Part shown: positions 35,944 through 54,251 of the stretch, in pieces | Layout: the number at the start of each line of letters is the position of its first letter | Position numbering within the stretch: position 1 is the stretch's first letter | Origin: Acidimicrobiia bacterium | Lineage (GTDB): Bacteria; Actinomycetota; Acidimicrobiia; IMCC26256; JACDBD01 | Direction of reading: 5' to 3' | Length of the DNA stretch: 63,590 bases | NCBI GenBank assembly: GCA_035938395.1 | Contig: DASZGY010000137.1 | Location: 1 to 63,590 of the forward strand | Notes under the pieces: model-generated | Database searches by the model: none | What the model was told of the DNA's origin: nothing | What the model saw: only the letters and a program-made list of their open reading frames with translations | Translations under genes and position numbers: made by a program

Positions 35944-38298
35944 CTACGCGCTGATCTCGTATACGGGGTTCATGATCGCGAGGCGGCCGTGATGGTCCAC
36001 GACCATGCCTTCGACCGTCAGTCGTGTCCCGATCTGGATGCCGGCGATGGTCCGCCGCCCGAGGAACAGCACTGAGATGCCACCCGTGTCGTCGACGAGC
36101 GTGCACTCGAGGGCGCACGTTCCCGACATCGACTGAACGCGTAGCGCGCTGACCGTGCCCGTCACGCGGACACGCTGACGCCACTCCACGTCGGCGATGA
36201 CGACGCTCGCCGTCCCCAGCTTCGCGGCGACAGCGCTCCGACCGCCGTTCCCGGCGGCGCGCGGTGCAGGTGACTTCGGCTTGCGAACCCCAGCTTCGCT
36301 GCGTCCATCCGGAGCGTGAAACTCGTTGAGCGTCGGGCCGACGCCACCCTCGTCCTCGCCGAGATTGAAGGGCACCGTCGTCACGGTCACGTGCTGCATC
36401 CTCGAGATATCGCGCGCCAGCGTCTCGGCGGTCTGGTCGTGGAGGATGCGGCGCCAGAACCCGCCGTACCGGCGGTCCGGTAGGACGACGCACACCTCGG
36501 TTTGGCCGTCGGCCAGGGCATGCGCGACGGTCGTCATCGCGCTTCGGCTCAGGCGACGATCAGGACTGTCCACCAGCTCGAGCGCGATGCTCGCGAGCCC
36601 GTGCTCGCGCCACGACTCGGCCAGCTCGTCGCCGCGCTGTTGATCGACGACGAAGTGCACGGCTCGCAGGTCGTCCGGGTGCAGCGACCGCCCGAACTGG
36701 AGGGCTCGAGCGGCCGCCAGGTCGAGGCGGTCGATGAACACGAGAACGGCGAGCCGCCGCATGATCGGGGCCCGCACCGCGGCCGGGACGTTGACGTCCA
36801 ATTTGCTTCCCTCCCGTTCGTACTGGCGAGCAAGGCGTACGAGGAACACCACCATCACCGGGACGAGCACCACGACGAGCCATGCGCCGTGGGCGAACTT
36901 CGTGACGGCGATGACCGCGTCGACGATCAGCGACATCACCGCACCGGTGCCGTTCACGAAGAGCCCGAACCGCCAGCCCGGCTCCTTCTGGGTGATGTGA
37001 TGCTTGGCCATGCCGGCCTGGGACAGCGTGAACGACGTGAACACGCCGATCGCATAGAGCGGGATCAGGCGATCGACCTTGGCCCCGGTGAGCAGGAGCA
37101 AGACGATCGACGCCACGGTCAAGAAGATGATCCCGTTCGAGAACACGAGGCGGTGTCCCCGCTTCGTGAGCTGCCGGGGCATGAAGTTGTCGCCGGCGTG
37201 GAACGACGCCAGACGGGGAAAGTCGGCGAAGCTCGTGTTGGCGGCGAGGACGAGGATCAGCATCGTGCCCGCCTGCAGAGCGAAGTACAGCAGCCGGCCC
37301 AACGGGCTGCCGCCGTACACGAGGTCTCCGATTTGCGAGATCACGGTCGGAGTGCCCTGAGCGTACGGCGCGACGTGCATGTGCGAGGCGAGCACCGACA
37401 GCCCGAGGAACATCGCGCCGAGGAGCGTGCCCATGATGACGAGCGTTGTGCGGGCGTTCTTCCACGCCGGCTTCTTGAAGGCGGGGACGCCGTTCGAGAT
37501 CGCCTCGACCCCGGTGACTGCGGCACCCCCGGACGCGAAGGCGTGGAGCACCACGAACAGTGTCGCCCCGAGCAGGATGCCGTTGCCCTGCTGGCCGAAG
37601 TGAACCACGCCCGCGGCGTTGTGGGACGCCTCGGGAAGCCCTCCGTTCATGAGCTGGTACAGGCCCCAGCCCAGAAGCACGAGCATGTTGACGATGAAGA
37701 AGTACGTCGGAACGGCGAAGACGCGCCCGGACTCGCGGACGCCCCGGAGGTTGCCGAACGCGATGAGGATGACGAAAGAGATCGAGATCGGCACGGCGAA
37801 AGGCGTCAGCATCGGGAACGCCGACGCCACGGCCGCCGTGCCGGCCGCGACCGATACCGACACCGTGAGCACATAGTCGGTGAGGAGCGCGACCCCCGCG
37901 ACCTGCGCGGGCAACAACCCGAAGTTGTCTCTCGTCACCATGTAGGCGCCGCCGGCCGTCGGATACGCCTTGATCGTCTGTCGGTACGAGAGGATCAGGA
38001 AGCCGAGCACCACCAACATCGCGACTGTGATCGGGACGACGAGCGCGAAGGCGGCGATCCCAACGGCGGGAACGAGGACGCGGAGGATCTCCTCGGTCGC
38101 ATACGCCGACGAAGACAAGTTGTCCGACGCGAAGACAGCGAGGGCGGTCGGCTTTCCGAGCCGCTCGTGATCGAGCTGCTCGGTGTGCAGAGGTGGGCCG
38201 AGGAGCTTCCGCTTGACGCGGTAGCCGACGCTGTCGCGAGGGAGCTCGGTCGACGGCTGGAGCGGCAGCGGTCGCGGCTCGGCCTTGTCGGTCAACAC
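35944..38298 (-). CDS. KimA/YdaO-like APC permease fused to a C-terminal OB-fold
   Basis: SDNLSSSAYATEE, TDYVLTVSVS, TGVEAISNG, NTSFADFPRL; cytoplasmic domain (LHDQTA); last ~85 aa OB-like (FLGRR.I.G...NPVY). Confidence 0.88.
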   Translation of the reverse strand: MLTDKAEPRPLPLQPSTELPRDSVGYRVKRKLLGPPLHTEQLDHERLGKPTALAVFASDNLSSSAYATEEILRVLVPAVGIAAFALVVPITVAMLVVLGFLILSYRQTIKAYPTAGGAYMVTRDNFGLLPAQVAGVALLTDYVLTVSVSVAAGTAAVASAFPMLTPFAVPISISFVILIAFGNLRGVRESGRVFAVPTYFFIVNMLVLLGWGLYQLMNGGLPEASHNAAGVVHFGQQGNGILLGATLFVVLHAFASGGAAVTGVEAISNGVPAFKKPAWKNARTTLVIMGTLLGAMFLGLSVLASHMHVAPYAQGTPTVISQIGDLVYGGSPLGRLLYFALQAGTMLILVLAANTSFADFPRLASFHAGDNFMPRQLTKRGHRLVFSNGIIFLTVASIVLLLLTGAKVDRLIPLYAIGVFTSFTLSQAGMAKHHITQKEPGWRFGLFVNGTGAVMSLIVDAVIAVTKFAHGAWLVVVLVPVMVVFLVRLARQYEREGSKLDVNVPAAVRAPIMRRLAVLVFIDRLDLAAARALQFGRSLHPDDLRAVHFVVDQQRGDELAESWREHGLASIALELVDSPDRRLSRSAMTTVAHALADGQTEVCVVLPDRRYGGFWRRILHDQTAETLARDISRMQHVTVTTVPFNLGEDEGGVGPTLNEFHAPDGRSEAGVRKPKSPAPRAAGNGGRSAVAAKLGTASVVIADVEWRQRVRVTGTVSALRVQSMSGTCALECTLVDDTGGISVLFLGRRTIAGIQIGTRLTVEGMVVDHHGRLAIMNPVYEISA

Positions 38299-38379
38299 GC
38301 CAGTGGCCTCCCGGTCACGGGCCCGCTGTCGGAAGCGGCGCGGGCGTCACCATGGTCACGTAGCGAACCCTCGAAAACG

Positions 38380-38429
38380 CGTTAAGGACGCGTCAAGACC
38401 GCCGAGCCGGGCGTCAGGATCCCGCTAGA
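38380..38429 (+). promoter_or_regulatory. Four-repeat array B (putative KdpE boxes), inverted relative to the adjacent APC gene
   Basis: CGTTAAG 38380, CGTCAAG 38391, CGTCAGG 38412, degenerate CGCTAGA 38423. Confidence 0.55.
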
Positions 38430-38445
38430 TTCCGCTGTTCCACCC

Positions 38446-39120
38446 TCAGGGTTCGAAGCGGTCCCCCATGCCGGGCTCGGTGATGAAGTAACGCGGGTGG
38501 GCGGGCTCGGGCTCCAGCTTGCGGCGGACCTGGGCCATGAACACCCGCAGATAGTTGGTCTCGTCGTGGTACTGGGGTCCCCAGACCTCTTGCAGCAGCT
38601 GCGTCTGCGCGACGAGGCGGCCGCGGTTGCGGACGAGGACCTCCACGAGGTGCCACTCGGTAGGGGTGAGCCGCACCTCTTCGCCGTTGCGCTGGACCTT
38701 CTTGGCGGCGAGATCGATCGTGAAGTCGGCGGTATCGATTACCGCGTCCTCTTCTGCCGGCGCCGTACGACGCAACGCAGCGCGCAAGCGGGCGAGGAGC
38801 TCGTCCATTCCGAACGGCTTCGTGACAAAGTCGTCGGCGCCGGCGTCGAGCGCGGCGACCTTGTCGTCCTCGGCGTCGCGCACGGACAGGACGACGATCG
38901 GAACCTGCGTCCAGCCCCGTAGTCCTCGAATGACGTCCACGCCGTCGATCCCCGGCAAGCCGAGGTCGAGGACGACGACGTCGGGGTGCTTGCGCGCCGC
39001 AAGCTCGAGGGCCCGCTCGCCGTCTTGCGCGACCTCGACGTCGTACCCGCGGGCGCGCAAGTTGATCGAGAGTGCTCGCCGGATCTGCGGCTCGTCGTCG
39101 ACGACGAGCACCCGGCTCAT
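38446..39120 (-). CDS. kdpE: Response regulator KdpE
   Basis: VDDEPQIRRAL, LDLGLP, TKPFGMDELLAR, NYLRVFMAQVRRKLE; ATGA overlap with kdpD. Confidence 0.9.
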   Translation of the reverse strand: MSRVLVVDDEPQIRRALSINLRARGYDVEVAQDGERALELAARKHPDVVVLDLGLPGIDGVDVIRGLRGWTQVPIVVLSVRDAEDDKVAALDAGADDFVTKPFGMDELLARLRAALRRTAPAEEDAVIDTADFTIDLAAKKVQRNGEEVRLTPTEWHLVEVLVRNRGRLVAQTQLLQEVWGPQYHDETNYLRVFMAQVRRKLEPEPAHPRYFITEPGMGDRFEP

Positions 39121-41612
39121 GCCGAGGCTTCGAGACTGACGACAACGGTGAGGCCGCCGCCCGGCGTGTCCTCGACGGTGATCTCACCGCCCATAGCGTC
39201 GACGAAGCCGCGCGCGACCGCCAGGCCGAGACCGGTGCCACCGTCGTTCGACTGATCGCCGAGCCGTTGAAATGGCTGGAACATGCGGTCGCGTTGATCG
39301 GGAGGAATGCCCGGGCCGCGGTCGACGACGCGAAGGTCGACCCGGTCGCCGACGGCGCACGCATCGACCCGGACGGGGTGGTCGGGCGGAGACCACGAGA
39401 GCGCGTTGCCGACGATGTTGGCGACGGCTCGCTCGAGGAGGGCGGCGTCGGCGTGAACGCGCGGCATCGTCTCCTCGACGCTCACTTCAACCGTCTGCGC
39501 CCGTTCGCCGAGCCCTTTGATCGCCGCCGGTACGACCTCCTCGAGGCCGACGTCCCGCATGACCAGTTGGAGAGCGCCGCTCTGGAGTCGGCTCATGTCG
39601 AGCAGGTTGCCGACGAGCGTGTTCAGCCGATCGGACTCCTCGTCGATCGTGGCGAGCAGCTCGTGCGTCGCCTGGGGCGTCCAGTCGACGTCCTGCTGGA
39701 GCAGGCTGGTCGCCGCGGCCTTGATCGACGAGAGCGGTGTGCGCAGATCGTGGGACACCGCGGCAAGGAGGGCGGCCCGCAGGTCGTTGGCTTCCGCCAG
39801 TCCCGCGGCCACCGCCGCCTCGGCCCGCAGCTGCCGGCGCTCGAGCGCGAGCGCGAGCTGGCCGGTGAACGCCTGGAGGAGCGCGAGGTCCTCGGCCGCG
39901 AGCCCCGGCCCGACCACGACCAGCTCCATCTCTGCGTCGATGGGGATGCTGAGGTCGCCCTCTTCCGGGCTCTGCGGAACCGGTGCCCCGGTCGACGTCT
40001 CGACAACCCAGCCGTCTCCGCTGCGTTGCAAGACGGCGATCCCTCCGAGGCCGAAGGCGGTGCGCAGCGTGCTGATGAGCAGCGGCAGCGGATCCTCTTC
40101 GACCATGAGCTGGCCGCCGAGCCGCGCGAGGGTCTCGGCTTCGGCACGCGCCCGAGACGCTTCGGCCGAACGCCGCGCCGCGAAGTGCACGAATCCGCTC
40201 ACGACCCCTGCCACCAGCAGGAACACGACGAGCGCGATGACATCCTTCCCCGCGTGGATCGCAAACTCGTGGAGGGGCGCAATGAAGTAGAAGTTCGCGA
40301 GAAGGAACGCGGCCACACTCGCTCCGAGCGCGGGCCATACCCCACCGACGGCGGCGATCGTGACGACGGCGAGGAGGTAGAGAAGCAACGTGGCGGGCAG
40401 ATCGAGGCCGTCCCGCATGGTGGCCATGACGAGGGTGAGCAACGGGAGGAGGACCACGCCCAGCAGCGCCCCGGCCACCTGACGGCGCACCGGGAGTGTT
40501 CGCCGTCCGCGAGGCCGGCGAAACGGGGCTTCTGGCGCGGGCTCCTCACTCGAGATCACGTGGACGTCGATGGAGCCGGACGCGCGGATCACACGGTTGA
40601 TCACGGAGCCGCGGGTGAGCTCGACCCAGCGCGACCGGCGGCTGGCACCGAGGACGAGCTGCGTGGCGTTCTCGGCGCGCGCGAACTCGATCAAAGCCTT
40701 GCCGACATCGTCACCGACGATCTCGTGGTACGTGCCTCCGAGCTCAGTCAGCAGTGCTCGATGCTCGTCGAGCAGCTGCTTCGGAGGGCCCGTGAGCCCG
40801 TCGTTCGAGCGCACGTGCACGCCGAACAGCTCGGCGTGAGCGCGCATCGCCATCCGTGCCGCACGCCGGATGAGCGCTTCCCCGCCCGGTGCTCCGGTGA
40901 TCGCCACGACCGTGCGCTCGCGCGTCTCCCATGGCCCCCGGATCCCGTGGTCGTCCATGTAGTCCTGTAATGACTCGTCGACCTTGTCGGCCACCCAGAG
41001 CAGGGCGAGCTCCCGGAGCGCGGCGAGGTTGCCGGGTCGGAAGTAGTTGGCGAGCGACGCGTCGATCCGCTCCGGCGGGTAGATGTTGCCGTGCGCCATG
41101 CGACGGCGGAGCGCCTCCGGGGTCATGTCGACGAGCTCGACCTGCTCGGCGGCCCGGACGATCGCGTCCGGAATGGTCTCGTGCTGCTTGACTCCCGTGA
41201 TCCGCTCGACGACGTCGTTGACCGACTCGAGGTGCTGCATGTTCAGCGTCGTCACGACGTCGATCCCCGCGTCGAGCAGCTCGTTGACGTCCTGCCACCG
41301 CTTCTCGTTCCGCGAGCCCGGGACATTCGTGTGGGCGATCTCGTCCACCAGAACGGCCTGCGGCTTCCGGGCGAGGACGGCATCGACGTCCATCTCCTCG
41401 AACTGCTTCCCGCGGTACTCGATCTTCTTCCGGGGCACGACCTCGAGATCCCGAATCTGCGCCTCTGTGTTGGCGCGACCGTGGGTTTCGACGTAGCCGA
41501 CGACGATGTCCTTGCCGCGGTGCCTCCCGCGCCAGCCTTCGTTGAGCATGGCGAAGGTCTTGCCGACGCCGGGCGCAGCGCCCAGATACACACGCAGCCT
41601 TCCACGAGCCAT
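39117..41612 (-). CDS. kdpD: Sensor histidine kinase KdpD
   Basis: GAAPGVGKT N-domain, DEIAHTN, Usp domain, four TMs, GAF, SHDLRTPL H-box, GTGLGL G-box. Confidence 0.96.
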   Translation of the reverse strand: MARGRLRVYLGAAPGVGKTFAMLNEGWRGRHRGKDIVVGYVETHGRANTEAQIRDLEVVPRKKIEYRGKQFEEMDVDAVLARKPQAVLVDEIAHTNVPGSRNEKRWQDVNELLDAGIDVVTTLNMQHLESVNDVVERITGVKQHETIPDAIVRAAEQVELVDMTPEALRRRMAHGNIYPPERIDASLANYFRPGNLAALRELALLWVADKVDESLQDYMDDHGIRGPWETRERTVVAITGAPGGEALIRRAARMAMRAHAELFGVHVRSNDGLTGPPKQLLDEHRALLTELGGTYHEIVGDDVGKALIEFARAENATQLVLGASRRSRWVELTRGSVINRVIRASGSIDVHVISSEEPAPEAPFRRPRGRRTLPVRRQVAGALLGVVLLPLLTLVMATMRDGLDLPATLLLYLLAVVTIAAVGGVWPALGASVAAFLLANFYFIAPLHEFAIHAGKDVIALVVFLLVAGVVSGFVHFAARRSAEASRARAEAETLARLGGQLMVEEDPLPLLISTLRTAFGLGGIAVLQRSGDGWVVETSTGAPVPQSPEEGDLSIPIDAEMELVVVGPGLAAEDLALLQAFTGQLALALERRQLRAEAAVAAGLAEANDLRAALLAAVSHDLRTPLSSIKAAATSLLQQDVDWTPQATHELLATIDEESDRLNTLVGNLLDMSRLQSGALQLVMRDVGLEEVVPAAIKGLGERAQTVEVSVEETMPRVHADAALLERAVANIVGNALSWSPPDHPVRVDACAVGDRVDLRVVDRGPGIPPDQRDRMFQPFQRLGDQSNDGGTGLGLAVARGFVDAMGGEITVEDTPGGGLTVVVSLEASA

Positions 41613-41633
41613 GGTGAAAGCCTACGACGCCCG

Positions 41634-42317
41634 TTACTCGGCAGCGTCGAAGCGATAGCCGAGACCGGCCTCGGTCGTGAAGTATCGAGGCCGGGACTGT
41701 TCCGGCTCGAGCTTCCGTCGGAGCCGGGCGATGTACTCGCGCAGGTTTCCCGTTTCGTCTTGGTACTCGGGACCCCAGACCTCCTGGAGGAGTTGGTGCT
41801 GGGGAACGAGCTTGCCGCGGTTGCGCACCAAGACCTCGACGAGTTGCCATTCCGTCGGGGTCAACCGCACCTCCTCGCCGTTGCGGGTGACGCGCTTGGC
41901 GGCGAGGTCGATCGTGAAGTCACCGGTTTCGATCGCCGCCTCGTCGGCGACGGGGATCACTCGCCGGAGCGCGGCCCGGAGCCTCGCCAAGAGCTCGTCC
42001 ATCCCGAACGGCTTGGTGACGTAGTCGTCGGCGCCGGCGTCGAGGGCGGCGACCTTGTCGGCCTCTGTGTCACGGACGGACAGGACGATGATCGGGACCC
42101 GGCTCCAGCCTCGGATGCCTTCGATGACCTCGACGCCTCCGATGCCGGGGAGGCCGAGATCGACGACGACGACATCGGGACGGTGGCGGACCGCCAGGTC
42201 GAGGGCTTCTTCGCCCGTCTCGGCGAGGTCGACGTCGAACCCGCGAGCCCGGAGGTTGATCCCGACTGTGCGCCGGATCTGAGTCTCGTCGTCGACGACG
42301 AGGACCCGGCTGGTCAT
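41634..42317 (-). CDS. Second KdpE-like response regulator
   Basis: Close paralogue of 38446-39120 (shared KVAALDAGADD.VTKPFGMDELLARLRAALRR). Confidence 0.88.
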   Translation of the reverse strand: MTSRVLVVDDETQIRRTVGINLRARGFDVDLAETGEEALDLAVRHRPDVVVVDLGLPGIGGVEVIEGIRGWSRVPIIVLSVRDTEADKVAALDAGADDYVTKPFGMDELLARLRAALRRVIPVADEAAIETGDFTIDLAAKRVTRNGEEVRLTPTEWQLVEVLVRNRGKLVPQHQLLQEVWGPEYQDETGNLREYIARLRRKLEPEQSRPRYFTTEAGLGYRFDAAE

Positions 42318-42353
42318 GATGCCTGACCACGCGCCATAGCGCTTCCTAGGTGC

Positions 42354-43151
42354 TCACGATTTCTGCTGGTCCAGGGCGAGATTGAGGTCCAGGACGTTGA
42401 CGGTCTTCTCGCCGAGGATCCCGAGATCCCGTCCCGAGGTGTGGTCGTCGATCAACGCGCGCACGCGCGCCACCGGAAGGCCGCGCTCGGTCGCGACGCG
42501 CTTCGCCTGGAGCCGTGCGTTGGCCACCGAGATGTCCGGGTCGAGGCCGGACGCCGACGCGGTCACGGCGTCGACGGGGACCTTCGTGGCGCGCCCGAGG
42601 CCGTTCAGCTCCCGGTACGCCAGCGTGCGCTGCGGCACCGTGTTCGTGTCGCAAACGTACGACCCGTCGTCGTTCTTCTTGTACTTGGTGTCGGCGGTCG
42701 GGCTCACGACCACCTTGCCGTCCTTGTCGTCCGGAACGCAGTACGGATCGTCAGGGCTCGCGAACGGGTTGGTCTTGGACGAGTTCCCGTTGAGATCGAC
42801 CGTGTTGAAGCCCGGGATGAAGCCGACGAGGGCAGGATTGGAGGGCCCGAGGTTCGAGCCCACGCTGAGGGTCGGGTCGTACCCGGCGGATGTCTTCCCG
42901 TCCACGCCGGACGCAGCAGAAGGCCGTGACTGGAAGTACTTCTTGATCGCGTTGCCGTCCTTGTCGACGAACGCCTGCCCGATCAGGCTCGAGCCGACAT
43001 CCTTCCCCTTGCGCTGCACGAAGGAGCCGTTGGCCTTGTCCTGCAAGCCCGGGATCTGGGCAACGCCCGTCACGAGGAGCCCGTAGCCGATGCCGAGCAC
43101 CAGCGTGAAGACGATCATCGACAGGACGGCGGGGATGAATTGGCGTCGCAT
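42354..43151 (-). CDS. kdpC: K+-transporting ATPase subunit C
   Basis: KANGS, GSSLIGQ, FQSRPS, VTASASGLDPDIS, VNVLDLNLALD; ~60-aa internal insertion. Confidence 0.95.
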   Translation of the reverse strand: MRRQFIPAVLSMIVFTLVLGIGYGLLVTGVAQIPGLQDKANGSFVQRKGKDVGSSLIGQAFVDKDGNAIKKYFQSRPSAASGVDGKTSAGYDPTLSVGSNLGPSNPALVGFIPGFNTVDLNGNSSKTNPFASPDDPYCVPDDKDGKVVVSPTADTKYKKNDDGSYVCDTNTVPQRTLAYRELNGLGRATKVPVDAVTASASGLDPDISVANARLQAKRVATERGLPVARVRALIDDHTSGRDLGILGEKTVNVLDLNLALDQQKS

Positions 43152-45215
43152 CTACGAGACTCCCAATGCCGAGATGACGATGTCGATGAGCTTGATGCCG
43201 ATGAAGGGCGCGATCACGCCGCCGGCGCCGTAGATCAGCAGGTTGCGCCGCAAGAGATGAGAAGCAGACGTCGGAATGAACTTCACACCCCGCAACGCCA
43301 GGGGGATCAGCATCACGATGATGATGGCGTTGAAGATGACTGCGGACAGGATGGCGGAACGCGGTGTCTGGAGCTGCATGACGTTCAGACGATCGAGAAC
43401 GCTCAGACTGGCGAAGCCGGCGAACATCGCCGGGATGATGGCGAAGTACTTGGCGACGTCGTTGGCGATCGAGAACGTGGTCAATGATCCGCGCGTGATC
43501 AGCAGCTGCTTGCCGATCTCCACGATGTCGATGAGCTTCGTCGGGTCCGACTCCAGGTCGACCATGTTCCCGGCTTCCTTGGCCGCCTGAGTACCGGTGT
43601 TCATTGCCACGGCGACGTCGGCCTGCGCGAGCGCAGGGGCGTCGTTGGTGCCGTCACCCGTCATTGCAACGAGTCTCCCGCCCCGTTGCTCGCTCTTGAT
43701 CAGCTCCATCTTGTCTTCGGGCGTCGCTTCGGCGAGATAGTCGTCGACACCCGCTTCCTTGGCGATGAAGGCTGCAGTGCGGGGGTTGTCGCCGGTGATC
43801 ATGACCGTGCGGATGCCCATGCGCCGCAGGTCGGCGAAACGATCGGCGATGCCGGGCTTGACGATGTCCTTGAGGTAGACGACACCCAACGCGCGCGGAG
43901 GGTGGGGGGAACCCTCCGCCGCGCCGGCCTCGGCGACCACGAGCGGCGTTCCGCCCTGCGCCGCAATCGAGTCGACCGTGTCGCCGAGTTCTGGGGGGAC
44001 GACGCCGCCCTGTTCCTCCACCCAGCGGCGAACCGCGTCGGCCGCGCCCTTGCGGACCGATCGTCCGTCCATATCCACACCGCTCATGCGCGTCTGCGCC
44101 GTGAAGGGAACGAGATCGGCGCCGATGAGCTCGCGCTCGCGCAGTCCGTAGCGCTCTTTCGCGAACACGACGATCGACCGTCCTTCGGGCGTCTCGTCCG
44201 CGAGGCTCGAGAGCTGCGCCGCGTCGGCGAACTCCTGCTCGGTCACGCCGTTGGCGGGGATGAACGCGTCAGCCTCGCGGTTCCCGAACGTGATCGTGCC
44301 CGTCTTGTCGAGCAGGAGAGTGGCGCAGTCCCCCGCTGCTTCGACGGCGCGACCACTCATGGCGAGCACGTTGCGGCGCACGAGCCGGTCCATCCCGGCA
44401 ATGCCGATGGCCGAGAGCAACGCGCCGATCGTCGTGGGAATGAGACAGACCAGCAGCGCAACGAGGATGACGACGGTCTGCTCGGCGTTGGCGAACATCG
44501 CGAACGGCTGGAGCGTCACAGTCGCGAGAAGGAAGATGATGGTGAGTCCCGCGAGGAGGATGTTGAGCGCGATCTCGTTCGGGGTCTTCTTGCGCTCGGA
44601 CCCCTCGACGAGAGCGATCATCCGATCCAGGAAGGTCTCCCCCGCGCGAGCCGTGATTCGCACCACGATCTCGTCGGACAGGACCCGAGTGCCCCCGGTG
44701 ACGGCCGAGCGGTCACCACCTGATTCGCGGATGACCGGCGCAGACTCACCGGTGATGGCGGACTCGTCGACGCTCGCGATGCCCTCGATCACCTCGCCGT
44801 CGGACGGGATGATCTCCCCCGCGCTCACGACGCACTCGTCGCCGACGTCGAGCGCGGTGCTCGGGACCTCGTCGATCGTGCCGTCCGGGTGGCGTCGACG
44901 AGCGAGTGTCTCTGAGCGCGTCTTCCGCAGCGTGTCGGCCTGCGCCTTTCCTCGGCCTTCGGCGACGGCCTCGGCGAAGTTCGCGAACAGCACCGTGAAC
45001 CACAGGAACAAGGCGACCAGGCCCACAAAGACGTTCTCGTTCGTCGAAGACGAGCCGAAGTCCTTGAAGAACAGGATCGTCGTCAGCACGGAGCCCACTC
45101 CGACGACGAACATCACCGGGTTGCGCATCAGCGTCCGCGGATTGAGCTTGATGAAGCTGTCGACGATTGCTCGCCGAAGCATCTTCGGCTCCACGAAGTT
45201 GGAGTCACGCGCCAT
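43152..45215 (-). CDS. kdpB: K+-transporting ATPase subunit B
   Basis: TGES, DKTGT phosphorylation motif, [22 protein letters not shown]. Confidence 0.98.
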
Positions 45216-45232
45216 GTGCCGATGCTCCTCGA

Positions 45233-46951
45233 TCAGATCCCGAGCTGCTCGACGATGGGGCCGAGCGCGAGGACGGGTAGGAAGGTCAGGGCGGCGACGA
45301 TCAGCACGACGCCGATGACGAGCACGACGAAGAGCGGTGTGTGTGTCGGGAACGTGCCTGCCGATGGCGGGACCCGGCGCTTGCGCACGAGCACGCCCGC
45401 GAGCGCAAGGGTCGGGATGATGAGGAAGAACCGGCCTACCAGCATGGTCACGGCCAGCGCTGTGTTCATCCAGGCCGTGTTCGCAGTGATGCCCGCGAAC
45501 GCCGAGCCGTTGTTGTTCCCTGCCGATGTGAACGCGTAGATGAGCTCCGTGAACCCGTGCGATCCCGGATTCAGGAGCGACACGTCACTCACGGATCTCA
45601 CGAACGTCGAGATGGCGATGAAGATCAGCACGACCGCGGGCATCACGAGGATGTAGATCGCGACGAGCTTCACCTCGGCGGCCTGGATCTTCTTGCCCAA
45701 GTACTCGGGAGTGCGCCCGACCATGAGACCGGCGATGAAGACAGAGAGGATGGCGAGTATCAGCAGCCCGTTCAGACCGACGCCGACGCCGCCCGGGCTG
45801 ACCTCCCCGAGCTTCATGTGCACGAGCGGGATCATGCCGCCGGCGGGCGTGAAGCTGTCGTGCATCGCGTTGACCGAACCGTTGGAGGTGCCGGTCGTAG
45901 ACGCGGCCCACAATCCGGACGCGCTCGGGCCGTACCGGACCTCCTTCCCTTCGGCGTTGCCGCCCGGTGAGCTCGCACTGACCGTCTGCGTGACGCCCAC
46001 ACCACGTGCGTCGAGCTTCGGGTTGCCGCCGACCTCGAGAAAGATCGTGAGGAGGCTGGCAGTAAGCCAGATCACGAACATGATCGAGAACACGGCGTAG
46101 CCCTGCCGCTTGTCCTTGACCATCCGTCCGAACGTGAAGGCCAGCGCGAACGGGATGATGAGGATGGAGTAGATCTCGAGGAAGTCGCTGAACTTGGTCG
46201 GGTTCGAGAACGGGTGCGCCGAGTTCACGTTGAAGAAGTCGCCGCCGTTGGTGCCGATCATCTTGATCGATTCCATGCTGGCGTTGGGGCCCCCCGGGAC
46301 CTTCTGGGTGGCGCCGGCGACGGTGTGCACCTGGGTGAAGCCATGGGTGTTCTGGATCACGCCGGTCGCCACGAGCACGATCGCGAACACGAACGCGATC
46401 GGAACCAGGATGCGGATCGTCGTACGCACGAGATCGACCCAGAAGTTGCCGATCGTGCGCTGACCGGCGCGCGACAGGCCCCGGATCAGCGCCGCCATCA
46501 CCGCCATGCCCGCTGCCGCAGACACGAACTGCTGGACGGTGAGACCCGTCATCTGGGTGAGATGGCTCAGAGTGCTCTCACCGGCGTAGCTCTGCCAGTT
46601 CGTGTTGGTCACGAAGCTGACCGCCGTGTTCAACGACAGCGCCGGCGCGACGTTGGCCATGTCGGTCGGGTTGAACGGCAGGCCGCTCTGGATGCGCTGG
46701 ATCAGGTACAGCAGCACGATGCCGACGACGCTGAACGCGAGCACTGACAGCGCGTAGACGTTCCACCGCTGCTCGCGTTCCGGATCGATCCGGCAGGCGC
46801 GGTAGATGAGCCGCTCGACCGGCCCGAAGACGCGGTCGAGGCGCGAAGGCCCGCCCTCGTACACGTTGGCCATGTACCGCCCGAGCAGCGGCGCGGTCGC
46901 GCCGATAAGGACGATGAGGGCAATCAGTTGCGCCCAGCCGGCAGCCGTCAT
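45233..46951 (-). CDS. kdpA: K+-transporting ATPase subunit A
   Basis: [42 protein letters not shown]. Confidence 0.98.
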
Positions 46952-47201: not shown

Positions 47202-47232
47202 GACTCTCCTCGGGTTCGCTCGTGCAGCCTCG

Positions 47233-47317: not shown

Positions 47318-47338
47318 ACGCCCGCCCGAGGGAGCCCG

Positions 47339-47422: not shown

Positions 47423-47474
47423 GTAGGGACCTACTACGTCGACGCTCGAGGAGGGCGACACGAGGAGCGCGGAA

Positions 47475-48033: not shown

Positions 48034-48037
48034 GCGC

Positions 48038-50395
<2,358 letters not shown>

Positions 50396-50469
50396 CTGGT
50401 GTACGGGCTCCTTCCCCCCGGGCCCCTCTGGGGCCGCTGCCGTCCGGCCGGCGCTCGCCGGCGGGCAGA

Positions 50470-52341
50470 TTACTGCGAGTCCCCGTCCCGGCTCGCCTCG
50501 TGCAGGTGATACGGGATGGAGGTGACCACCGTCCCCTTGCGGAACAGCAGCCGGCCCTTGAGCAGCAGCGCTGTCTGGTTGTGGAGCAGGTGGCCCCACC
50601 AGTGGTCGACCACGAACTCGGGGATCAGCACGGTGACGATGTCGTTATCCCAGCGTGCGTCGATCTCGTCGATGTAGCGAAGGATCGGCCTCGTGACCTC
50701 CCGGTAGGGGTCGTAGACGATCTCCAGCGGGACGTCGATGTTGCGTTCGGCCCAGGCCCGCTCGATGTTCTCCTGTTGCTCCTCGTCCGACACGACGGTG
50801 ACGGCGATGACGCGAGTCGGGTTCAGGGACTTCGCGTACGCGAGGGCGTCGAGCACCCCCCGGTGCATGCCTCCGACCAGGACGACGACGGTGTGGTTCA
50901 TCGCCGGAGGCCGGTAGTCGGGCGGGACGATCAGCTGTCTCCGCACCCGCTCGTAGTGGCGGTGGATGCCCCTGAAGAGCACGACGATCGCCGGGATCAC
51001 GATGATCGGCACCCACGCGCCGCTCGTGAACTTCGTGATCGCGACGATCAGCGTGACGATGCCGGTGGCCACGGCGCCGACCGCGTTGATCACCGTGTTG
51101 CGCTTCCACGCGGGCTCTCGCAGCCGGAGGTGGTGGATCACCATGCCGGTCTGCGACAACGTGAACGACGTGAACACGCCGACCGCATAGAGCGGGATCA
51201 GCGCGTTGGTGATCCCGCCGAACGCGATGATGAGCAGGGCGGCCATCCCCGAGAGCACGAGGATGCCGTTCGAGAACACCAGCCGATCGCCGCGGTTGGC
51301 AAGCTGCCGGGGGAGATAGCCGTCCCGGGCGATGATCGACGAGAGCCTCGGGAAGTCCGCGTAGGCGGTGTTGGCGGCGAGCGTGAGGATCGCAGCCGTC
51401 GCGAACTGCAGGAGCACGAAGACGGGGCCGTTTCCGAACACAACCAGGCCCAGCTGCGAGATGACCGTCTTCTCGTGGCTCGGGTAGGGGTGCAGCTGGT
51501 GGGCGAGCAGCGCGGTCCCGAAGAAGAGCGTGCCGAGGATCGTCCCCATCGCGACGAGCGTGGTGGCGGCGTTCCTCGACTCGGGTCTCTTGAACGCGGG
51601 AACACCGTTGCTGATCGCCTCGACGCCGGTCAGCGCCACCGCGCCCGACGAGAACCCCTTCAGGATCAGGAACAACCCCAGGGTCCCGCCGAATTCACGG
51701 GTGCCGGCGAACGCGTGCCGGTCGAACGGCACCTGGTCGATGTGGCCGAAGTAGCTGCGGAACAGGCCGATGCCGACCAGCGCGGCCAGCACAACGACGT
51801 AGATGTAGGTCGGCGCCGCGAACAACCGCCCGGATTCCTTGATGCCCCGCAGGTTGGCGATGGCGATGAACGCGATCAGCGCAAGGCCGAGCTCGACGCG
51901 ATGCGTCGCGAGTCCCTGGAACGCGGGGATCGAGACGATGGCAGCGACGCCGGCCGAGATCGACACCGCGACGGTCAGGATGTAGTCGACAAGCAAGGAT
52001 CCGCCCGCGATGAGCGAGGGAGTCTCGCCGAGGTTCTCGCGGCTGACGATGTAGCTCCCGCCGCCGCTCGGATAGGCGAAGATCGTCTGCCGGTACGACG
52101 TGCACACGATCGCCAGGAGGATCGCGACCGCGATCCCGATCGGCACGAGCGTGTCGAGTCCGAGCGCCAGGCTCGACGCGCCCACGGCGGTGACGAACAG
52201 GATCTCCTCGGTCGCGTACGCCGTCGACGAGATCGCGTCGGAGGAGAACACCGCGAGCCCGATCGTCTTCGGTATGCGCTGGTGCTCTTGCTCGACGGTC
52301 GCCAGTGGCCGCCCGACCAGCAGTCGCTTGAGGATCGCCAC
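50470..52341 (-). CDS. KimA/YdaO-like APC permease (second copy, no OB-fold)
   Basis: SDAISSTAYATEE, VDYILTVAVS, TGVEAISNG, NTAYADFPRL, LLHNQTA. Confidence 0.92.
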   Translation of the reverse strand: MAILKRLLVGRPLATVEQEHQRIPKTIGLAVFSSDAISSTAYATEEILFVTAVGASSLALGLDTLVPIGIAVAILLAIVCTSYRQTIFAYPSGGGSYIVSRENLGETPSLIAGGSLLVDYILTVAVSISAGVAAIVSIPAFQGLATHRVELGLALIAFIAIANLRGIKESGRLFAAPTYIYVVVLAALVGIGLFRSYFGHIDQVPFDRHAFAGTREFGGTLGLFLILKGFSSGAVALTGVEAISNGVPAFKRPESRNAATTLVAMGTILGTLFFGTALLAHQLHPYPSHEKTVISQLGLVVFGNGPVFVLLQFATAAILTLAANTAYADFPRLSSIIARDGYLPRQLANRGDRLVFSNGILVLSGMAALLIIAFGGITNALIPLYAVGVFTSFTLSQTGMVIHHLRLREPAWKRNTVINAVGAVATGIVTLIVAITKFTSGAWVPIIVIPAIVVLFRGIHRHYERVRRQLIVPPDYRPPAMNHTVVVLVGGMHRGVLDALAYAKSLNPTRVIAVTVVSDEEQQENIERAWAERNIDVPLEIVYDPYREVTRPILRYIDEIDARWDNDIVTVLIPEFVVDHWWGHLLHNQTALLLKGRLLFRKGTVVTSIPYHLHEASRDGDSQ

Positions 52342-52487
52342 CCCGCCCCCGGGGATTCGATGACGCCGGAATCTGACGAGGGCCGACCCTCCGGTCAGCC
52401 CGCTCGGGCCAGCATGCCATGCCGCTGCTTCGCTGATCGTGCTGCCGCGTCATAACATCCAGCCGTCCGAGCTGCCTGGAGGGCGCG

Positions 52488-53147
52488 GTGCACGTGGTGG
52501 TCGTCGGCTGCGGCCGGGTCGGGAGCGAGCTCGCCGGCACGCTCGAGAAGTCCGGCCACACGGTCGCCGTGATCGACAAGAACGCGAACGCGTTCCGACG
52601 GCTCCCCGCCGGGTACGCCGGACACCGGGTCGTCGGCTTCGGGTTCGACCGCGACACCCTCGAGGAGGCCGGCATCGACCGCGCCGGCGCGCTGGCCGCC
52701 GTGACCAACGGCGACAACTCCAACATCCTCGTCGCCCGCATCGCCCGGGAGTCCTTCGGGATCGAGCGGGTCGTCGCCCGCATCTACGACCCCCGCCGGG
52801 CGGTGATCTACCAGCGTTTGGGCATCCCGACGGTCGCCACCGTGTCGTGGACGACCGACCAGGTGTTGAGGCGGCTCCTCCCCGGCGAGCAGCCCCACGA
52901 CTGGATCGACCCGAGTGCCCGGGTGAGCCTCGTCGAGCGAGTGCTGCCGTCCAACTGGGGCGGCAAGAAGCTCGCGTCGCTGAACGAGCCCGGGCGCTTC
53001 CTGCTGACGGCGGTGACGAGGTTGGGCGAGGCGCAGATCGCGGGCCCCAAGCTCGTCGGTCAGGAAGGCGACATGCTCCACTTTGTCGTCGACGTCAACG
53101 CCATGGACGCCCTGCGCGAGCGCCTCGAGCACGGACCGGAGGCGTAG
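52488..53147 (+). CDS. trkA: TrkA/CeoB-family RCK protein
   Basis: VVVGCGRVG, GFGFDR, DNSNIL, IYQRLGIPTVATVSWT. Confidence 0.9.
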   Translation: MHVVVVGCGRVGSELAGTLEKSGHTVAVIDKNANAFRRLPAGYAGHRVVGFGFDRDTLEEAGIDRAGALAAVTNGDNSNILVARIARESFGIERVVARIYDPRRAVIYQRLGIPTVATVSWTTDQVLRRLLPGEQPHDWIDPSARVSLVERVLPSNWGGKKLASLNEPGRFLLTAVTRLGEAQIAGPKLVGQEGDMLHFVVDVNAMDALRERLEHGPEA

Positions 53148-53149
53148 CG

Positions 53150-53815
53150 ATGCGGGTCGCGATCGCCGGCGCGGGGAACGTCGGTCTCTTCATCGCCAAC
53201 GATCTGCGCGCCGCCGGGCACGAAGTGCAACTCATCGAGCAGAACCCGGCCGTGGTCGAACGCGCGGTCGCCGACGAAGGCGTCGAATGGTTCATTGCCG
53301 ACGCGTGCGAGGTGTCGTCCCTGAAGGAGGCCGGCCTCGAGCGCTGCGACGTCGTGGTGGCCGCCACCGGCGACGACGAGGACAACCTCGTGATCTCGCT
53401 CCTCGCCAAGCAGGAGTTCGCGGTCCCACGGGTGATCGCCCGGGTCAACCACCCGAAGAACGAGTGGATGTTCAACGAGAACTGGGGCGTCGACCTCTCG
53501 GTGTCGACCCCCCACCTCATCACCGCACTCGTGGAGGAGGCGGTGAGCGTGGGCCGTCTCGTGCGCATCCTCCAGTTCGAGCGCGGGCTCGCCCGTCTCG
53601 TCGAGGTGACGCTCGCCGAGAACGCGCCGGTGGTCGATCGCGCGCTCAAGGACGTCGACATGCCCCGCGATGCCACCGTCGTCGCCGTCGTCCGCGGCGA
53701 GCACGTCGTGATGCCCCGTGGCGACACCGTCTTCGAGATCGGCGATGAGGTGCTGGCGATGGTGACGCCGGACTCCGAGGAGAACGTCCGCGGCATCCTG
53801 ACCGGCGAGGAGTGA
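53150..53815 (+). CDS. trkA: TrkA/CeoC-family RCK protein
   Basis: IAGAGNVG, ADACE, TGDDEDNLV, ARVNHPKNEW; RCK_C domain. Confidence 0.9.
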   Translation: MRVAIAGAGNVGLFIANDLRAAGHEVQLIEQNPAVVERAVADEGVEWFIADACEVSSLKEAGLERCDVVVAATGDDEDNLVISLLAKQEFAVPRVIARVNHPKNEWMFNENWGVDLSVSTPHLITALVEEAVSVGRLVRILQFERGLARLVEVTLAENAPVVDRALKDVDMPRDATVVAVVRGEHVVMPRGDTVFEIGDEVLAMVTPDSEENVRGILTGEE

Positions 53816-53833
53816 CGAGCCCCCGCGGGAGGC

Positions 53834-54187
53834 TCAGCCGAGGAGCTGGTACTCGGGGTTGTACACGAGGTAGCGGTTGCCGTCCTTGCCGGCGACCCCG
53901 GCGAGCATGACGCGCCGCCCCGGAGACATGCCCGGGATCTTGCGCCGGCCGAGGAACACCCCGACCACACTGCCCCGACCGTCGCTCACGGTGACCTCGA
54001 CGGCCGGAGCGCCGGCGCGGGGCACGATGCGCACGGCGCGGATCTCCCCCGCCACCCGCGTCGGCGTGCGGGGCGTGATCCGGTCCATCGGCGTCACGCC
54101 GAGCCGGTCGCAGTAGGCGCCGAGCGCCTCACGATCGAGCTCGTCGACGGGCTTGGTCAGCCGCTTCATCGTCTTGCCCAGGGCCAC
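53834..54187 (-). CDS. Stand-alone OB-fold protein (Rv2694c-like)
   Basis: VAGEIRAV...VSDGRGSV..VFLGRRKIPG...NPEY; AGGAGG RBS before the GTG. Confidence 0.85.
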   Translation of the reverse strand: MALGKTMKRLTKPVDELDREALGAYCDRLGVTPMDRITPRTPTRVAGEIRAVRIVPRAGAPAVEVTVSDGRGSVVGVFLGRRKIPGMSPGRRVMLAGVAGKDGNRYLVYNPEYQLLG

Positions 54188-54251
54188 GCCGGCCTCCTTC
54201 TGGCTTCCTGGCTTGCATCGTAGAGCTTCGGGCGTGGCATCCTGTCGCCCC

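What the first reader, a model, noticed from the sequence alone, without database searches (positions are those of the whole stretch)
35944..54187. OB-fold as a recurring partner of KimA/Trk potassium uptake (fused and free-standing)
Seen: one KimA-like permease ends in an ~85-aa OB-like domain (FLGRRTIAG...NPVY). A homologous stand-alone protein (FLGRRKIPG...NPEY) sits next to the second permease and the two trkA genes. Established: KimA is a c-di-AMP-inhibited K+ importer, and OB-folds often bind nucleic acids or nucleotides. Inference: the fusion points to the OB-fold being a regulatory subunit of these transporters, perhaps sensing a nucleotide or RNA, or feeding back on mRNA. I know of no characterised function for it.
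Basis: partly seen in the sequence, partly recalled or inferred. Interest (0 to 1): 0.72.

Follow-up and report, generated by a model that had tools for sequence, protein, structure and literature searches.

The report
OB-fold partner of KimA potassium importers
A small OB-fold protein, fused to the potassium importer KimA in some actinobacteria and encoded next to it and two TrkA regulator genes in others (including the uncharacterised Rv2694c type of mycobacteria), looks like an undescribed subunit of a three-part potassium uptake system.

Summary
The window, from an Acidimicrobiia genome, holds two KimA-type K+/H+ importers that are 43% identical. One (35944-38298, minus strand) ends in a flexible linker of about 45 residues plus a 90-residue OB domain. 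The other (50470-52341) lies beside two trkA genes and a free 117-residue OB protein (53834-54187). The two OB domains are homologous (32% identity, E 6e-15).

The pairing is far beyond chance:
- Of 301 Actinomycetota genomes, 109 have the OB protein and 108 of these have KimA.
- Of 113 OB loci, 108 have KimA or TrkA within 10 kb; the other 5 lie at contig ends.
- OB is fused only to KimA, in at least two separate lineages.
- 96 of the 109 OB genomes lack the usual TrkH/KtrB pore, as does this genome.
- KimA and trkA are rarely neighbours where OB is absent.

M. tuberculosis Rv2694c belongs to the family. It is Thr-phosphorylated in the conserved loop and is co-essential with ceoB and ceoC in TnSeq data.

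My best reading is that OB is an accessory subunit of KimA-based uptake and probably links KimA to the TrkA pair. The ligand and mechanism are untested. Sensing of RNA or a nucleotide is neither supported nor excluded. No paper found describes this.

The parts
35944..38298 (-). kimA1::OB, a KimA-type K+/H+ symporter with a C-terminal OB domain (784 aa)
   Evidence: AA_permease_2; full-length match to B. subtilis KimA 6S3K, E 3.4e-125; at least 110 clusters share this architecture.
36859..38223 (-). Transmembrane (LeuT-fold) domain of KimA1, residues about 26-480
   Evidence: alignment; D36, Y43, T230, Y377 and R337 equivalents are conserved.
36352..36858 (-). KimA1 cytosolic (PPAT-like) domain, residues about 481-649
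   Evidence: alignment to KimA residues 440-604, with H-D-Q-T at the H579-S582 positions. AF2 pLDDT about 94.
36220..36351 (-). Disordered linker, residues about 650-693
   Evidence: AF2 pLDDT below 50 for construct residues 170-213. Composition is rich in Gly, Pro and Ala.
35947..36219 (-). Fused OB domain, residues about 694-784 (FLGRRTIAG...NPVYE)
   Evidence: 32% identity, E 6e-15 to the free OB; profile E 2.1e-39; pLDDT about 96, five strands.
50470..52341 (-). kimA2, the KimA paralogue without OB (623 aa)
   Evidence: AA_permease_2; 43% identical to KimA1; keeps the K+ site and H-N-Q-T.
52488..53147 (+). trkA1, half-size RCK protein (TrkA_N only), CeoB/CeoC type
   Evidence: TrkA_N E 6e-26; one of only two TrkA_N genes in the genome.
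53147..53815 (+). trkA2, half-size RCK protein (TrkA_N + TrkA_C)
   Evidence: TrkA_N E 7.5e-29, TrkA_C E 2.5e-16.
53834..54187 (-). Free-standing OB protein (117 aa): two N-terminal helices plus an OB barrel; Rv2694c-type family
   Evidence: GGAGG site + GTG start; pLDDT 90.7. OB-fold matches; motif shared with the Rv2694c peptide.
48038..50599 (-). H+-translocating pyrophosphatase (start uncertain; the ORF overlaps the kimA2 end). A recurrent neighbour of the module.
   Evidence: H_PPase E 3.6e-238; conserved next to kimA2 or OB in related loci.
38446..46951 (-). Context of kimA1::OB: a second kdpE-like regulator, kdpD, kdpE, kdpC, kdpB, kdpA
   Evidence: Pfam matches.

Best explanation
The OB domain or protein is a dedicated cytoplasmic accessory subunit of actinobacterial KimA-type K+/H+ importers.

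In the fused genes it hangs on the KimA cytosolic domain by a flexible linker of about 45 residues. In the free form a conserved N-terminal helical hairpin, which the fusions lack, most likely replaces that tether by docking non-covalently.

Together with the two half-size TrkA (RCK; CeoB/CeoC-type) proteins it forms a three-gene module. This module takes the place of the usual TrkH/KtrB-based Trk/Ktr system.

The step I think most likely is that OB acts through protein contacts. It would bridge or modulate the interaction between KimA's cytosolic domain and the RCK pair. Its conserved Gly/Arg loop (LGRRxIxGxxxG), phosphorylated on Thr in M. tuberculosis, would be the functional and regulated surface.

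Shown: homology, fold, fusion, neighbourhood, phyletic pattern and absence of TrkH.
Taken from the literature: phosphorylation and co-essentiality of Rv2694c.
Inferred: physical binding, the adaptor role and the role of the loop.
For: 1. Fusions. At least 110 KimA::OB clusters. Nearly all long members among the 150 best family representatives are KimA::OB or C-terminal pieces of it. They include KimA2-type permeases fused to free-type OB domains. On the OB tree the KimA1::OB and KimA2::OB fusions form separate starred clades. The 'free' OBs of family f4, which lie just downstream of kimA, nest inside the fused clade. This means at least two fusions plus a fission.

2. Phyletic pattern in 301 genomes. 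OB occurs in 109, and 108 of these have KimA (Fisher p 1.5e-47). The single exception is a genome that is 59% complete.

3. Neighbourhood.
- 80 of 80 Acidimicrobiia loci keep OB beside the KimA/TrkA genes wherever the contig reaches them.
- Of 113 loci from about 20 families, 108 have KimA or TrkA within 10 kb and 88 have both within 5 kb. The 5 exceptions lie at contig ends.
- The link survives rearrangement: OB upstream of kimA with a gap of about 45 nt (f11); OB between the two trkA genes (L059, L061 and others); kimA followed by OB with no trkA nearby (f4); KimA::OB divergent from trkA-trkA with no free OB (f8, f9).

4. TrkH/KtrB. It is absent from this genome, whose only TrkA_N genes are this pair. 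It is absent from 96 of 109 OB genomes but present in 143 of 192 others (p 3e-27).

5. Without OB, only 2 of 28 listed KimA genes lie within 5 kb of trkA.

6. Literature. The Rv2694c phosphopeptide RIPGIDT*GR matches the family loop; Mycobacterium-like loci carry RIPGIDSGR. In TnSeq data ceoB, ceoC, Rv2694c and Rv3200c form one co-essential module.

7. Structure. Both domains fold with high confidence and the linker is disordered (pLDDT below 50), which fits a tethered subunit. Among the best fold matches are OBs that work as protein-protein modules (RPA32, Stn1-Ten1, RMI2).
Against: - No binding or transport data exist.
- The AF2 model of the KimA cytosolic domain plus OB gives pTM 0.62. That shows no fixed docking of OB on the monomeric cytosolic domain.
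- The free OB gene is usually convergent with trkA rather than in its operon. Much of the neighbourhood could be inherited synteny.
- The Fisher tests are not corrected for phylogeny.
- Other genes also recur beside OB. An H+-PPase gene lies directly upstream in 33 of 113 loci. A DUF3159 membrane protein gene lies directly downstream in the Streptomyces-like and Mycobacterium-like loci examined. The partner set may therefore be wider or different.
- By sequence and fold the nearest relatives are nucleic-acid-binding OBs (PF01336, RecG wedge).
- The KimA list was cut at 150 rows, so some counts are lower bounds.
Confidence: 0.6

Rival explanations
1. OB is a nucleic-acid-binding regulator. It would bind RNA or ssDNA, for example the mRNA of the K+ genes, and link transporter state to expression.
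For: The fold class and weak Pfam matches are to nucleic-acid-binding OBs (tRNA_anti-codon 23.4 bits; RecG_wedge in relatives). The best Foldseek matches are ssDNA-binding OBs. The free OB of the window is basic (pI 10.4). The loop has a conserved Arg-Arg pair.
Against: The fused OB has net charge 0, and the family's core charge ranges from about -1 to +5. None of the invariant columns is an aromatic residue. No Rfam RNA lies in the window. A domain tethered to a membrane transporter is an unusual place for an mRNA or DNA binder. The Pfam scores are below the gathering cut-off.
Confidence: 0.15
2. OB is a small-ligand sensor. The Gly/Arg loop would bind a phosphate-bearing molecule such as c-di-AMP, ATP/ADP, (p)ppGpp or pyrophosphate, and so gate KimA.
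For: The conserved LGRRxIxGxxxG loop is rich in Gly and Arg. KimA is controlled by c-di-AMP in Bacillus. An H+-pyrophosphatase gene is a recurrent immediate neighbour. C-terminal OB (TOBE) domains of ABC transporters are a precedent for ligand-sensing OBs on transporters (own knowledge).
Against: Both KimA paralogues keep R337 and the H-[ND]-Q-T pocket of B. subtilis KimA, so c-di-AMP sensing does not need OB. No TOBE/MOP or other ligand-binding OB appears among the 50 matches listed. No match to any c-di-AMP receptor family was found in Pfam or NCBIfam.
Confidence: 0.15
3. The free OB gene is only a passenger in an old synteny block, and its true function lies elsewhere. Candidates are the adjacent H+-PPase, DUF3159 or cell-envelope (LCP) genes. 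On this view the KimA fusion is a lineage-specific accident.
For: The block LCP-unknown-OB-trkA-trkA-kimA-hppA is kept across Acidimicrobiia. hppA lies directly upstream of OB in 33 of 113 loci. DUF3159 lies directly downstream in two other lineages. OB is usually not co-directional with trkA.
Against: Fusions are to KimA only and arose at least twice. OB is never found without KimA in a reasonably complete genome. OB stays with kimA when trkA and hppA are elsewhere (f4). Rv2694c is co-essential with ceoB and ceoC.
Confidence: 0.08

Closest known systems
KimA (YdaO) of Bacillus subtilis, K+/H+ symporter of the KUP family (PDB 6S3K, 8B70, 8B71)
   Same: Both permeases align over their full length, including the swapped cytosolic domain. 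They keep the K+ site (D36, Y43, T230, Y377), R337 and most of the c-di-AMP pocket.
   Different: B. subtilis KimA has no OB domain, no OB partner and no adjacent trkA genes. Here one paralogue carries a linker plus OB, and the other sits in a trkA-trkA-OB cluster.
M. tuberculosis 'Trk' locus: Rv2690c, ceoB (Rv2691), ceoC (Rv2692), Rv2693c, Rv2694c
   Same: The gene set and order match those in Mycobacterium-like genomes of the survey: KimA-like permease, two half-size TrkA genes, DUF3159, OB. The Rv2694c peptide RIPGIDTGR matches the family loop. Rv2694c is co-essential with ceoB and ceoC.
   Different: In mycobacteria OB is free and followed by DUF3159; no fusion is seen there. The Mtb papers read here name no TrkH, Rv2690c or other membrane partner for CeoB/CeoC, and assign Rv2694c no role. 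That Rv2690c is the KimA-like gene rests on synteny and my own knowledge of the annotation. It was not checked against the Mtb sequence.
TrkAH / KtrAB: RCK-ring-gated K+ uptake systems
   Same: Half-size TrkA_N(+TrkA_C) proteins are encoded next to a K+ uptake membrane protein.
   Different: The pore subunit TrkH/KtrB (PF02386) is absent from this genome and from 88% of OB-bearing genomes. The neighbouring membrane protein is a LeuT-fold symporter with its own cytosolic domain. An OB protein is an extra component.
TOBE (transport-associated OB) domains at the C-terminus of ABC-transporter ATPases such as MalK and ModC
   Same: An OB-fold domain is appended to the cytoplasmic end of a transport protein and acts in regulation. 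This is an analogy from my own knowledge.
   Different: There is no sequence or fold-search match to TOBE/MOP domains. The carrier class differs, and the attachment here is a long disordered linker.
RecG wedge / PF01336 nucleic-acid-binding OB folds, and RPA32 / Stn1-type OBs
   Same: These are the closest by sequence profile (sub-threshold PF01336; PF17191 in relatives) and by fold.
   Different: The E-values are weak (Foldseek 7e-5 to 1e-3, TM 0.5-0.6). The family-specific LGRRxIxGxxxG loop stands where many OB folds carry a helix between strands 3 and 4. The genomic context is K+ transport, not DNA metabolism.

Membership tests
KimA subfamily of KUP K+/H+ symporters (both permeases) | Full-length homology to B. 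subtilis KimA, including the C-terminal cytosolic domain | tested here: met
   residues 26-645 align to 3-604 of 607, E 3.4e-125. KimA2 is 43% identical to KimA1 over 631 columns.
KimA subfamily of KUP K+/H+ symporters (both permeases) | K+-coordinating residues D36, Y43, T230 and Y377 | tested here: met
   Read from the alignments; the residues are named in PMC10284832. All four are conserved in KimA1 and KimA2.
KimA subfamily of KUP K+/H+ symporters (both permeases) | c-di-AMP pocket (R337, H579, N580, Q581, S582) and inhibition by c-di-AMP | tested here: inconclusive
   R337 is conserved in both. KimA1 has H-D-Q-T and KimA2 has H-N-Q-T. Binding and inhibition cannot be tested here.
KimA subfamily of KUP K+/H+ symporters (both permeases) | K+ transport activity | not testable with these tools
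   Needs an uptake or complementation assay.
Nucleic-acid-binding OB fold (Pfam PF01336 tRNA_anti-codon / PF17191 RecG_wedge) | Five-stranded OB beta-barrel | tested here: met
   AF2 pLDDT 90.7, strands 42-116. Foldseek probability 1.00 to RPA32, Stn1, PolC OB, RecG and hSSB1.
Nucleic-acid-binding OB fold (Pfam PF01336 tRNA_anti-codon / PF17191 RecG_wedge) | Score above the Pfam gathering threshold | tested here: not met
   Free OB: 23.4 bits against a cut-off of 27. The fused protein shows no OB match at all. Relatives score 18-21 bits.
Nucleic-acid-binding OB fold (Pfam PF01336 tRNA_anti-codon / PF17191 RecG_wedge) | Binds ssDNA or RNA | not testable with these tools
   Indirect signs are mixed: variable charge and no invariant aromatic residues.
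Rv2694c-type actinobacterial OB proteins (no curated family exists) | Signature G47, D69, LGRR(80-82), G86, G90, G97, NP(110-111) with a C-terminal NPxYE | tested here: met
   Alignments A1-A3. The window's free and fused OBs both carry it. Profile E-values are 3.6e-60 and 2.1e-39.
Rv2694c-type actinobacterial OB proteins (no curated family exists) | Encoded beside a KimA-like permease and a trkA pair | tested here: met
Rv2694c-type actinobacterial OB proteins (no curated family exists) | Rv2694c itself is a member | tested here: inconclusive
   Only its published peptide RIPGIDTGR and the near-identical RIPGIDSGR in Mycobacterium-like loci with the same gene order were compared. The full Mtb sequence was not held.
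Trk/Ktr system (TrkA + TrkH/KtrB) | RCK protein with a TrkA_N domain | tested here: met
Trk/Ktr system (TrkA + TrkH/KtrB) | TrkH/KtrB-type pore subunit (PF02386) in the genome | tested here: not met
   none in the 96%-complete genome, while the control search found it in 11 of 14 reference genomes.
TOBE / MOP transport-associated OB domains | Sequence or fold similarity to TOBE domains | tested here: not met
   No Pfam match. None among the 50 PDB fold matches listed.

The most novel reading that the evidence does not exclude
A KimA-type LeuT-fold K+/H+ symporter, the small OB protein and the CeoB/CeoC-type half-size RCK pair form one physical complex. In it OB is the adaptor that docks the RCK ring onto KimA's cytosolic domain. 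This would be the first RCK-gated KUP/KimA transporter. It would also supply the missing membrane partner (Rv2690c type) and a missing subunit (Rv2694c type, under Ser/Thr-kinase control) of the mycobacterial and streptomycete 'Trk' system.
Probability: 0.3. Interest if true: 0.85.

Novelty: new variant of a known kind. Interest (0 to 1): 0.7.

Why it matters
Potassium uptake in Actinomycetota is usually described as 'Trk' (CeoB/CeoC) plus Kdp. Yet most of these genomes, like this one, have no TrkH/KtrB pore for the TrkA proteins.

The data point to a different arrangement: a KimA-type symporter with an OB-fold subunit, in some lineages fused to it, and the RCK pair. If this holds, it has three consequences:
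- It names the membrane component of the system and a new regulatory subunit.
- It gives a role to a conserved protein of unknown function (the Rv2694c type), which is already known to be Thr-phosphorylated and co-essential with ceoB and ceoC.
- It offers a natural fusion that can be expressed and tested directly.

It also bears on a published puzzle: an M. tuberculosis mutant lacking both Trk and Kdp still takes up K+ (PMC13163235).

Tried and rejected
- PDB sequence search with the free OB. The only hit (8FJE, a designed repeat protein) comes from repeated weak matches of a 27-residue helix segment and is spurious. The fused OB gave nothing.
- NCBIfam. No family matched either OB or KimA1; there were only faint RecG hits.
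- Rfam scan of the window. It found only a tRNA and tRNA-Sec, with no ydaO-type c-di-AMP riboswitch.
- Promoter and terminator scan around trkA and OB. Nothing was found.
- AF2 of KimA1 residues 481-784, used to look for docking of OB on the cytosolic domain. Both domains are confident, but the linker is disordered and pTM is 0.62, so it says nothing for or against docking. No interface data are returned.
- TOBE-like classification. Rejected, with no sequence or fold match.
- OB as the c-di-AMP sensor. Made less likely because KimA's own pocket is conserved.
- Longer family members as possible new fusions (200-585 aa). Nearly all those listed carry a KimA piece and are C-terminal pieces of KimA::OB from short contigs. 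One, P0295, has a receiver domain in front and may be a chimera.
- Weak OB hits (E 1e-6 to 1e-9) in frames of about 700-1100 aa. I took them for RecG-like proteins by frame length alone and excluded them with a 1e-14 cut-off. That cut-off also dropped real divergent OBs next to trkA in G009, G216 and G281.
- My 'FUSED' flag in the tree was wrong for L132, L141, L168 and L170, which merely have long open frames.
- Papers. None was found on a KimA-OB link or on the function of Rv2690c.

Full report
**What is in the window.** The window has about 70% G+C and comes from a 3.03-Mb, 96%-complete genome. Its closest relatives are Acidimicrobiia metagenome-assembled genomes. I mapped genes by third-position G+C and Pfam.

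On the minus strand lie:
- kimA1::OB (35944-38298)
- a second kdpE-like regulator, then kdpD, kdpE, kdpC, kdpB and kdpA (38446-46951)
- an H+-pyrophosphatase (48038-50599)
- kimA2 (50470-52341)

On the plus strand lie trkA1 (52488-53147) and trkA2 (53147-53815). Convergent with trkA2, 18 nt away, is the free OB gene (53834-54187, minus strand). It has a GGAGG site before its GTG start.

KimA1 aligns over residues 26-645 with all of B. subtilis KimA (6S3K; E 3.4e-125). KimA2 is 43% identical to KimA1. Reading those alignments against the residues named in PMC10284832, both paralogues keep three features:
- the K+ site (D36, Y43, T230, Y377)
- R337
- the H-x-Q-S/T part of the c-di-AMP pocket (H-D-Q-T in KimA1, H-N-Q-T in KimA2)

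KimA1 continues past the KimA homology with a Gly/Pro/Ala-rich stretch and then a 90-residue domain. That domain is 32% identical (E 6e-15) to the free 117-residue protein. AlphaFold2 models the free protein with mean pLDDT 90.7, as two N-terminal helices followed by a five-stranded barrel. Foldseek matches it to OB folds of RPA32, Stn1/Ten1, PolC, the RecG wedge, hSSB1 and the LysRS anticodon domain. The E-values are modest (7e-5 to 1e-3) and TM-scores are 0.5-0.6.

Pfam sees only a sub-threshold tRNA_anti-codon match (23.4 bits against a cut-off of 27). NCBIfam has no family for it.

A model of KimA1 residues 481-784 gives a confident cytosolic domain (pLDDT about 94) and a confident OB (about 96). 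The linker, residues 650-693, is disordered (below 50), and pTM is 0.62. The OB is therefore tethered rather than rigidly built in.

**The fusion is a conserved architecture.** Searching with the OB part of KimA1 among proteins of similar length found 110 clusters (90% identity). Nearly all are about 780 aa, and nearly all carry the permease domain. They come from many independent metagenomes, and those with names are labelled Acidimicrobiia or Acidimicrobiales.

A profile search of 1.84 billion representatives found 1883 family members at E <= 1e-3 and 928 at E <= 1e-10. Most of the best 150 are free proteins of 100-140 aa. Nearly all the longer ones that I compared with the window's proteins are KimA::OB, or C-terminal pieces of it from short contigs. 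Four of them (P0256, P0287, P0293, P0326) join a KimA2-like permease to an OB that is closer to the free type.

A maximum-likelihood tree of OB domains places the KimA1::OB fusions in one starred clade (96/92). Nested inside that clade are the 'free' OBs of one Acidimicrobiia family (f4), whose genes lie about 120-170 nt downstream of kimA. The KimA2::OB fusions form a separate starred clade (97/81) among the free Acidimicrobiia OBs. So fusion happened at least twice, and fission at least once. Four rows that I had flagged as fused (L132, L141, L168, L170) are only long open frames and do not count.

**Neighbourhood survey.**

*Acidimicrobiia.* In 80 genome loci found with the OB profile, the order LCP, unknown, OB, then trkA2 and trkA1 on the other strand, kimA2, hppA is kept wherever the contig is long enough. 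The variants are informative:
- In six loci OB lies between the two trkA genes.
- In six others kimA1::OB lies directly upstream of the free OB gene, with a further trkA pair beside it.

*Whole phylum.* In 301 genomes drawn evenly across the phylum, the profile finds strong matches (E < 1e-14) in 109 genomes from about 20 families. I fetched 20 kb around all 113 such sites outside the window's own genome and located KimA and TrkA by tblastn. The counts are:

| Measure | Loci (of 113) |
|---|---|
| KimA or TrkA within 5 kb | 102 |
| KimA or TrkA within 10 kb | 108 |
| Both within 5 kb | 88 |
| Neither within 10 kb, all at contig ends | 5 |

The arrangements differ between families:
- **f11:** OB lies directly upstream of kimA (gap about 45 nt), divergent from trkA-trkA.
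- **f5, f16, f20:** OB is convergent with trkA-trkA, which is divergent from kimA.
- **f8, f9:** KimA::OB is divergent from trkA-trkA, and there is no free OB.
- **f4:** kimA is followed by OB, with the trkA pair elsewhere in the genome.
- **f24:** in part of this family the kdp genes lie between trkA and OB.
- **Streptomyces-like and Mycobacterium-like genomes:** a DUF3159 membrane protein gene lies between OB and trkA.

**Phyletic pattern.** Of the 109 genomes with OB, 108 have a KimA homologue; the one exception is 59% complete. Another 38 genomes have KimA without a strong OB match (Fisher p 1.5e-47). TrkH/KtrB (PF02386) is absent from the window's genome, while the same search found it in 11 of 14 control genomes. 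The two trkA genes of the window are the only TrkA_N genes in that genome.

Across the phylum, 96 of the 109 OB genomes lack TrkH/KtrB, whereas 143 of the 192 others have it (p 3e-27). In genomes without OB, only 2 of 28 listed KimA genes lie within 5 kb of a trkA gene. Three further 'OB-less' genomes (G009, G216, G281) turned out to have a divergent OB right beside the trkA pair.

These tests are not corrected for shared ancestry, and the KimA table was cut at 150 rows. The numbers are therefore indicative, and some are lower bounds.

**Link to the literature.**
- A phosphoproteome paper lists the Rv2694c peptide RIPGIDT*GR, with phospho-Thr (PMC4322841, also citing Prisic et al. 2010). This is the family's conserved loop, LGRRxIPGxxxGR. 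Mycobacterium-like genomes of the survey have WLGQRRIPGIDSGR in the OB gene, which sits in the gene order expected for Rv2690c-Rv2694c.
- A TnSeq co-essentiality preprint reports one module made of ceoB, ceoC, Rv2694c and Rv3200c (10.1101/2022.09.27.509804).
- The Mtb potassium papers I read describe 'Trk' as CeoB plus CeoC. They name no TrkH or Rv2690c partner.
- One of them reports that a mutant lacking Trk and Kdp still takes up K+ (PMC13163235).
- I found no paper linking KimA to an OB fold, and none on the function of Rv2690c.
- Sources name family members only as 'OB-fold nucleic acid binding domain-containing protein', 'RecG-like helicase' or 'RecG wedge domain'.

**How it most likely works.**

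*Shown.* OB is homologous in its fused and free forms. It co-occurs with KimA, is fused only to KimA, and marks the cases where KimA and a trkA pair are neighbours in genomes that lack TrkH/KtrB.

*Inferred.*
- OB binds the KimA cytosolic domain.
- The free form's conserved N-terminal helical hairpin is absent from the fusions, where a disordered linker stands in its place. It likely provides the attachment that the linker provides in the fusions.
- OB bridges or tunes the contact between KimA and the RCK pair.
- The LGRRxIxGxxxG loop, which contains several of the family's most conserved positions (G80, R81-R82, G86, G90) and is phosphorylated in Mtb, is the working surface.

I put about 0.85 on 'functional partner of KimA-based K+ uptake'. 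I put about 0.3 on the specific adaptor-to-RCK mechanism. I give 0.6 to the statement as written.

**Rivals.**
- *Nucleic-acid binding.* This fits the fold class. It is not supported by the charge, which varies (the fused OB has net charge 0). It is also not supported by the invariant residues, none of which is aromatic, nor by any RNA element in the window.
- *Small-ligand sensor.* The Gly/Arg loop makes this plausible. But c-di-AMP sensing can be explained by KimA's own conserved pocket, and no TOBE-like or other ligand-binding OB appears among the listed fold matches.
- *Pure synteny.* Repeated fusion, the phyletic pattern and the TnSeq result argue against it. However, hppA lies directly upstream of OB in 33 of 113 loci, and DUF3159 is also a recurrent neighbour. 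The partner set may therefore be wider than KimA and TrkA.

**Novelty and verdict.** KimA and TrkA are known. An OB-fold subunit of a KimA system, and a KimA-OB-RCK module standing in for Trk/Ktr, are not described in the papers searched. I file it as a new variant of a known kind. Earlier notes of this scan on other genomes reached the same reading. They are not independent evidence, but every claim of theirs that I use was re-derived here.

Noticed in passing
L090:10189-12477; also L101, L114, L145 (related loci): Many actinomycete KimA homologues (open frames of about 760-820 aa) carry a second, tandem copy of the C-terminal cytosolic domain. Residues 479-620 of KimA2 hit twice in a row.
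   Followed up: partly
window 48038-52341; 113 phylum loci L087-L199: An H+-pyrophosphatase gene recurs beside the module. It lies directly upstream of the free OB gene on the same strand (gap <= 300 nt) in 33 of 113 loci, and somewhere in the fetched stretch (about 10 kb to each side) in 55. In the window kimA2 and hppA are co-directional and their open frames overlap. A proton pump beside a K+/H+ symporter may be a functional pairing.
   Followed up: partly
L091:10164-10970 (+); L197:9103-9978 (-): In Streptomyces-like and Mycobacterium-like genomes the OB gene is followed, at 4 nt or overlapping, by a DUF3159 membrane protein gene, so the two are likely co-transcribed. The window's genome has DUF3159 only on another contig.
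   Followed up: partly
window 35117-35920 (+): A 267-aa protein consists only of the KdpD membrane module (DUF4118), with no kinase domains, and is convergent with kimA1::OB. Similar genes recur next to hppA or kdpA in related loci such as L061, L065 and L067.
   Followed up: no
window 38446-39120 (-): A second KdpE-like response regulator lies downstream of kdpD, between kdpD and kimA1::OB. KimA::OB genes also sit next to kdpD-like genes in other genomes (L116, L180).
   Followed up: no
protein P0295 (327 aa, from the representative library): It has a receiver domain (residues 13-121), then the last 80 residues of a KimA cytosolic domain, then an OB domain. It is either an assembly or gene-call chimera, or a response regulator that has captured the KimA tail.
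   Followed up: no
window 54153-54950 (+) and 54866-55861 (+): A 265-aa protein with a hydrophobic N-terminal stretch (a likely membrane anchor) and no family match, and an LCP-family transferase, are conserved divergently from the free OB gene in most of the Acidimicrobiia loci examined. The annotated starts of OB and the unknown gene overlap by about 35 nt.
   Followed up: no
L034, L048, L050, L074 (record titles): Contigs carrying the typical Acidimicrobiia OB-trkA-kimA cluster are labelled Bifidobacteriaceae or Gemmatimonadales in their records. These are probably mis-binned or mislabelled MAGs.
   Followed up: no
G009:C1:1015418-1015693; G216:C1:95951-96247; G281:C53:8440-8739: Divergent OB copies (profile E 1e-7 to 1e-10) sit right beside trkA pairs in genomes that I had counted as OB-less. 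The family is therefore wider than the strict cut-off shows.
   Followed up: partly
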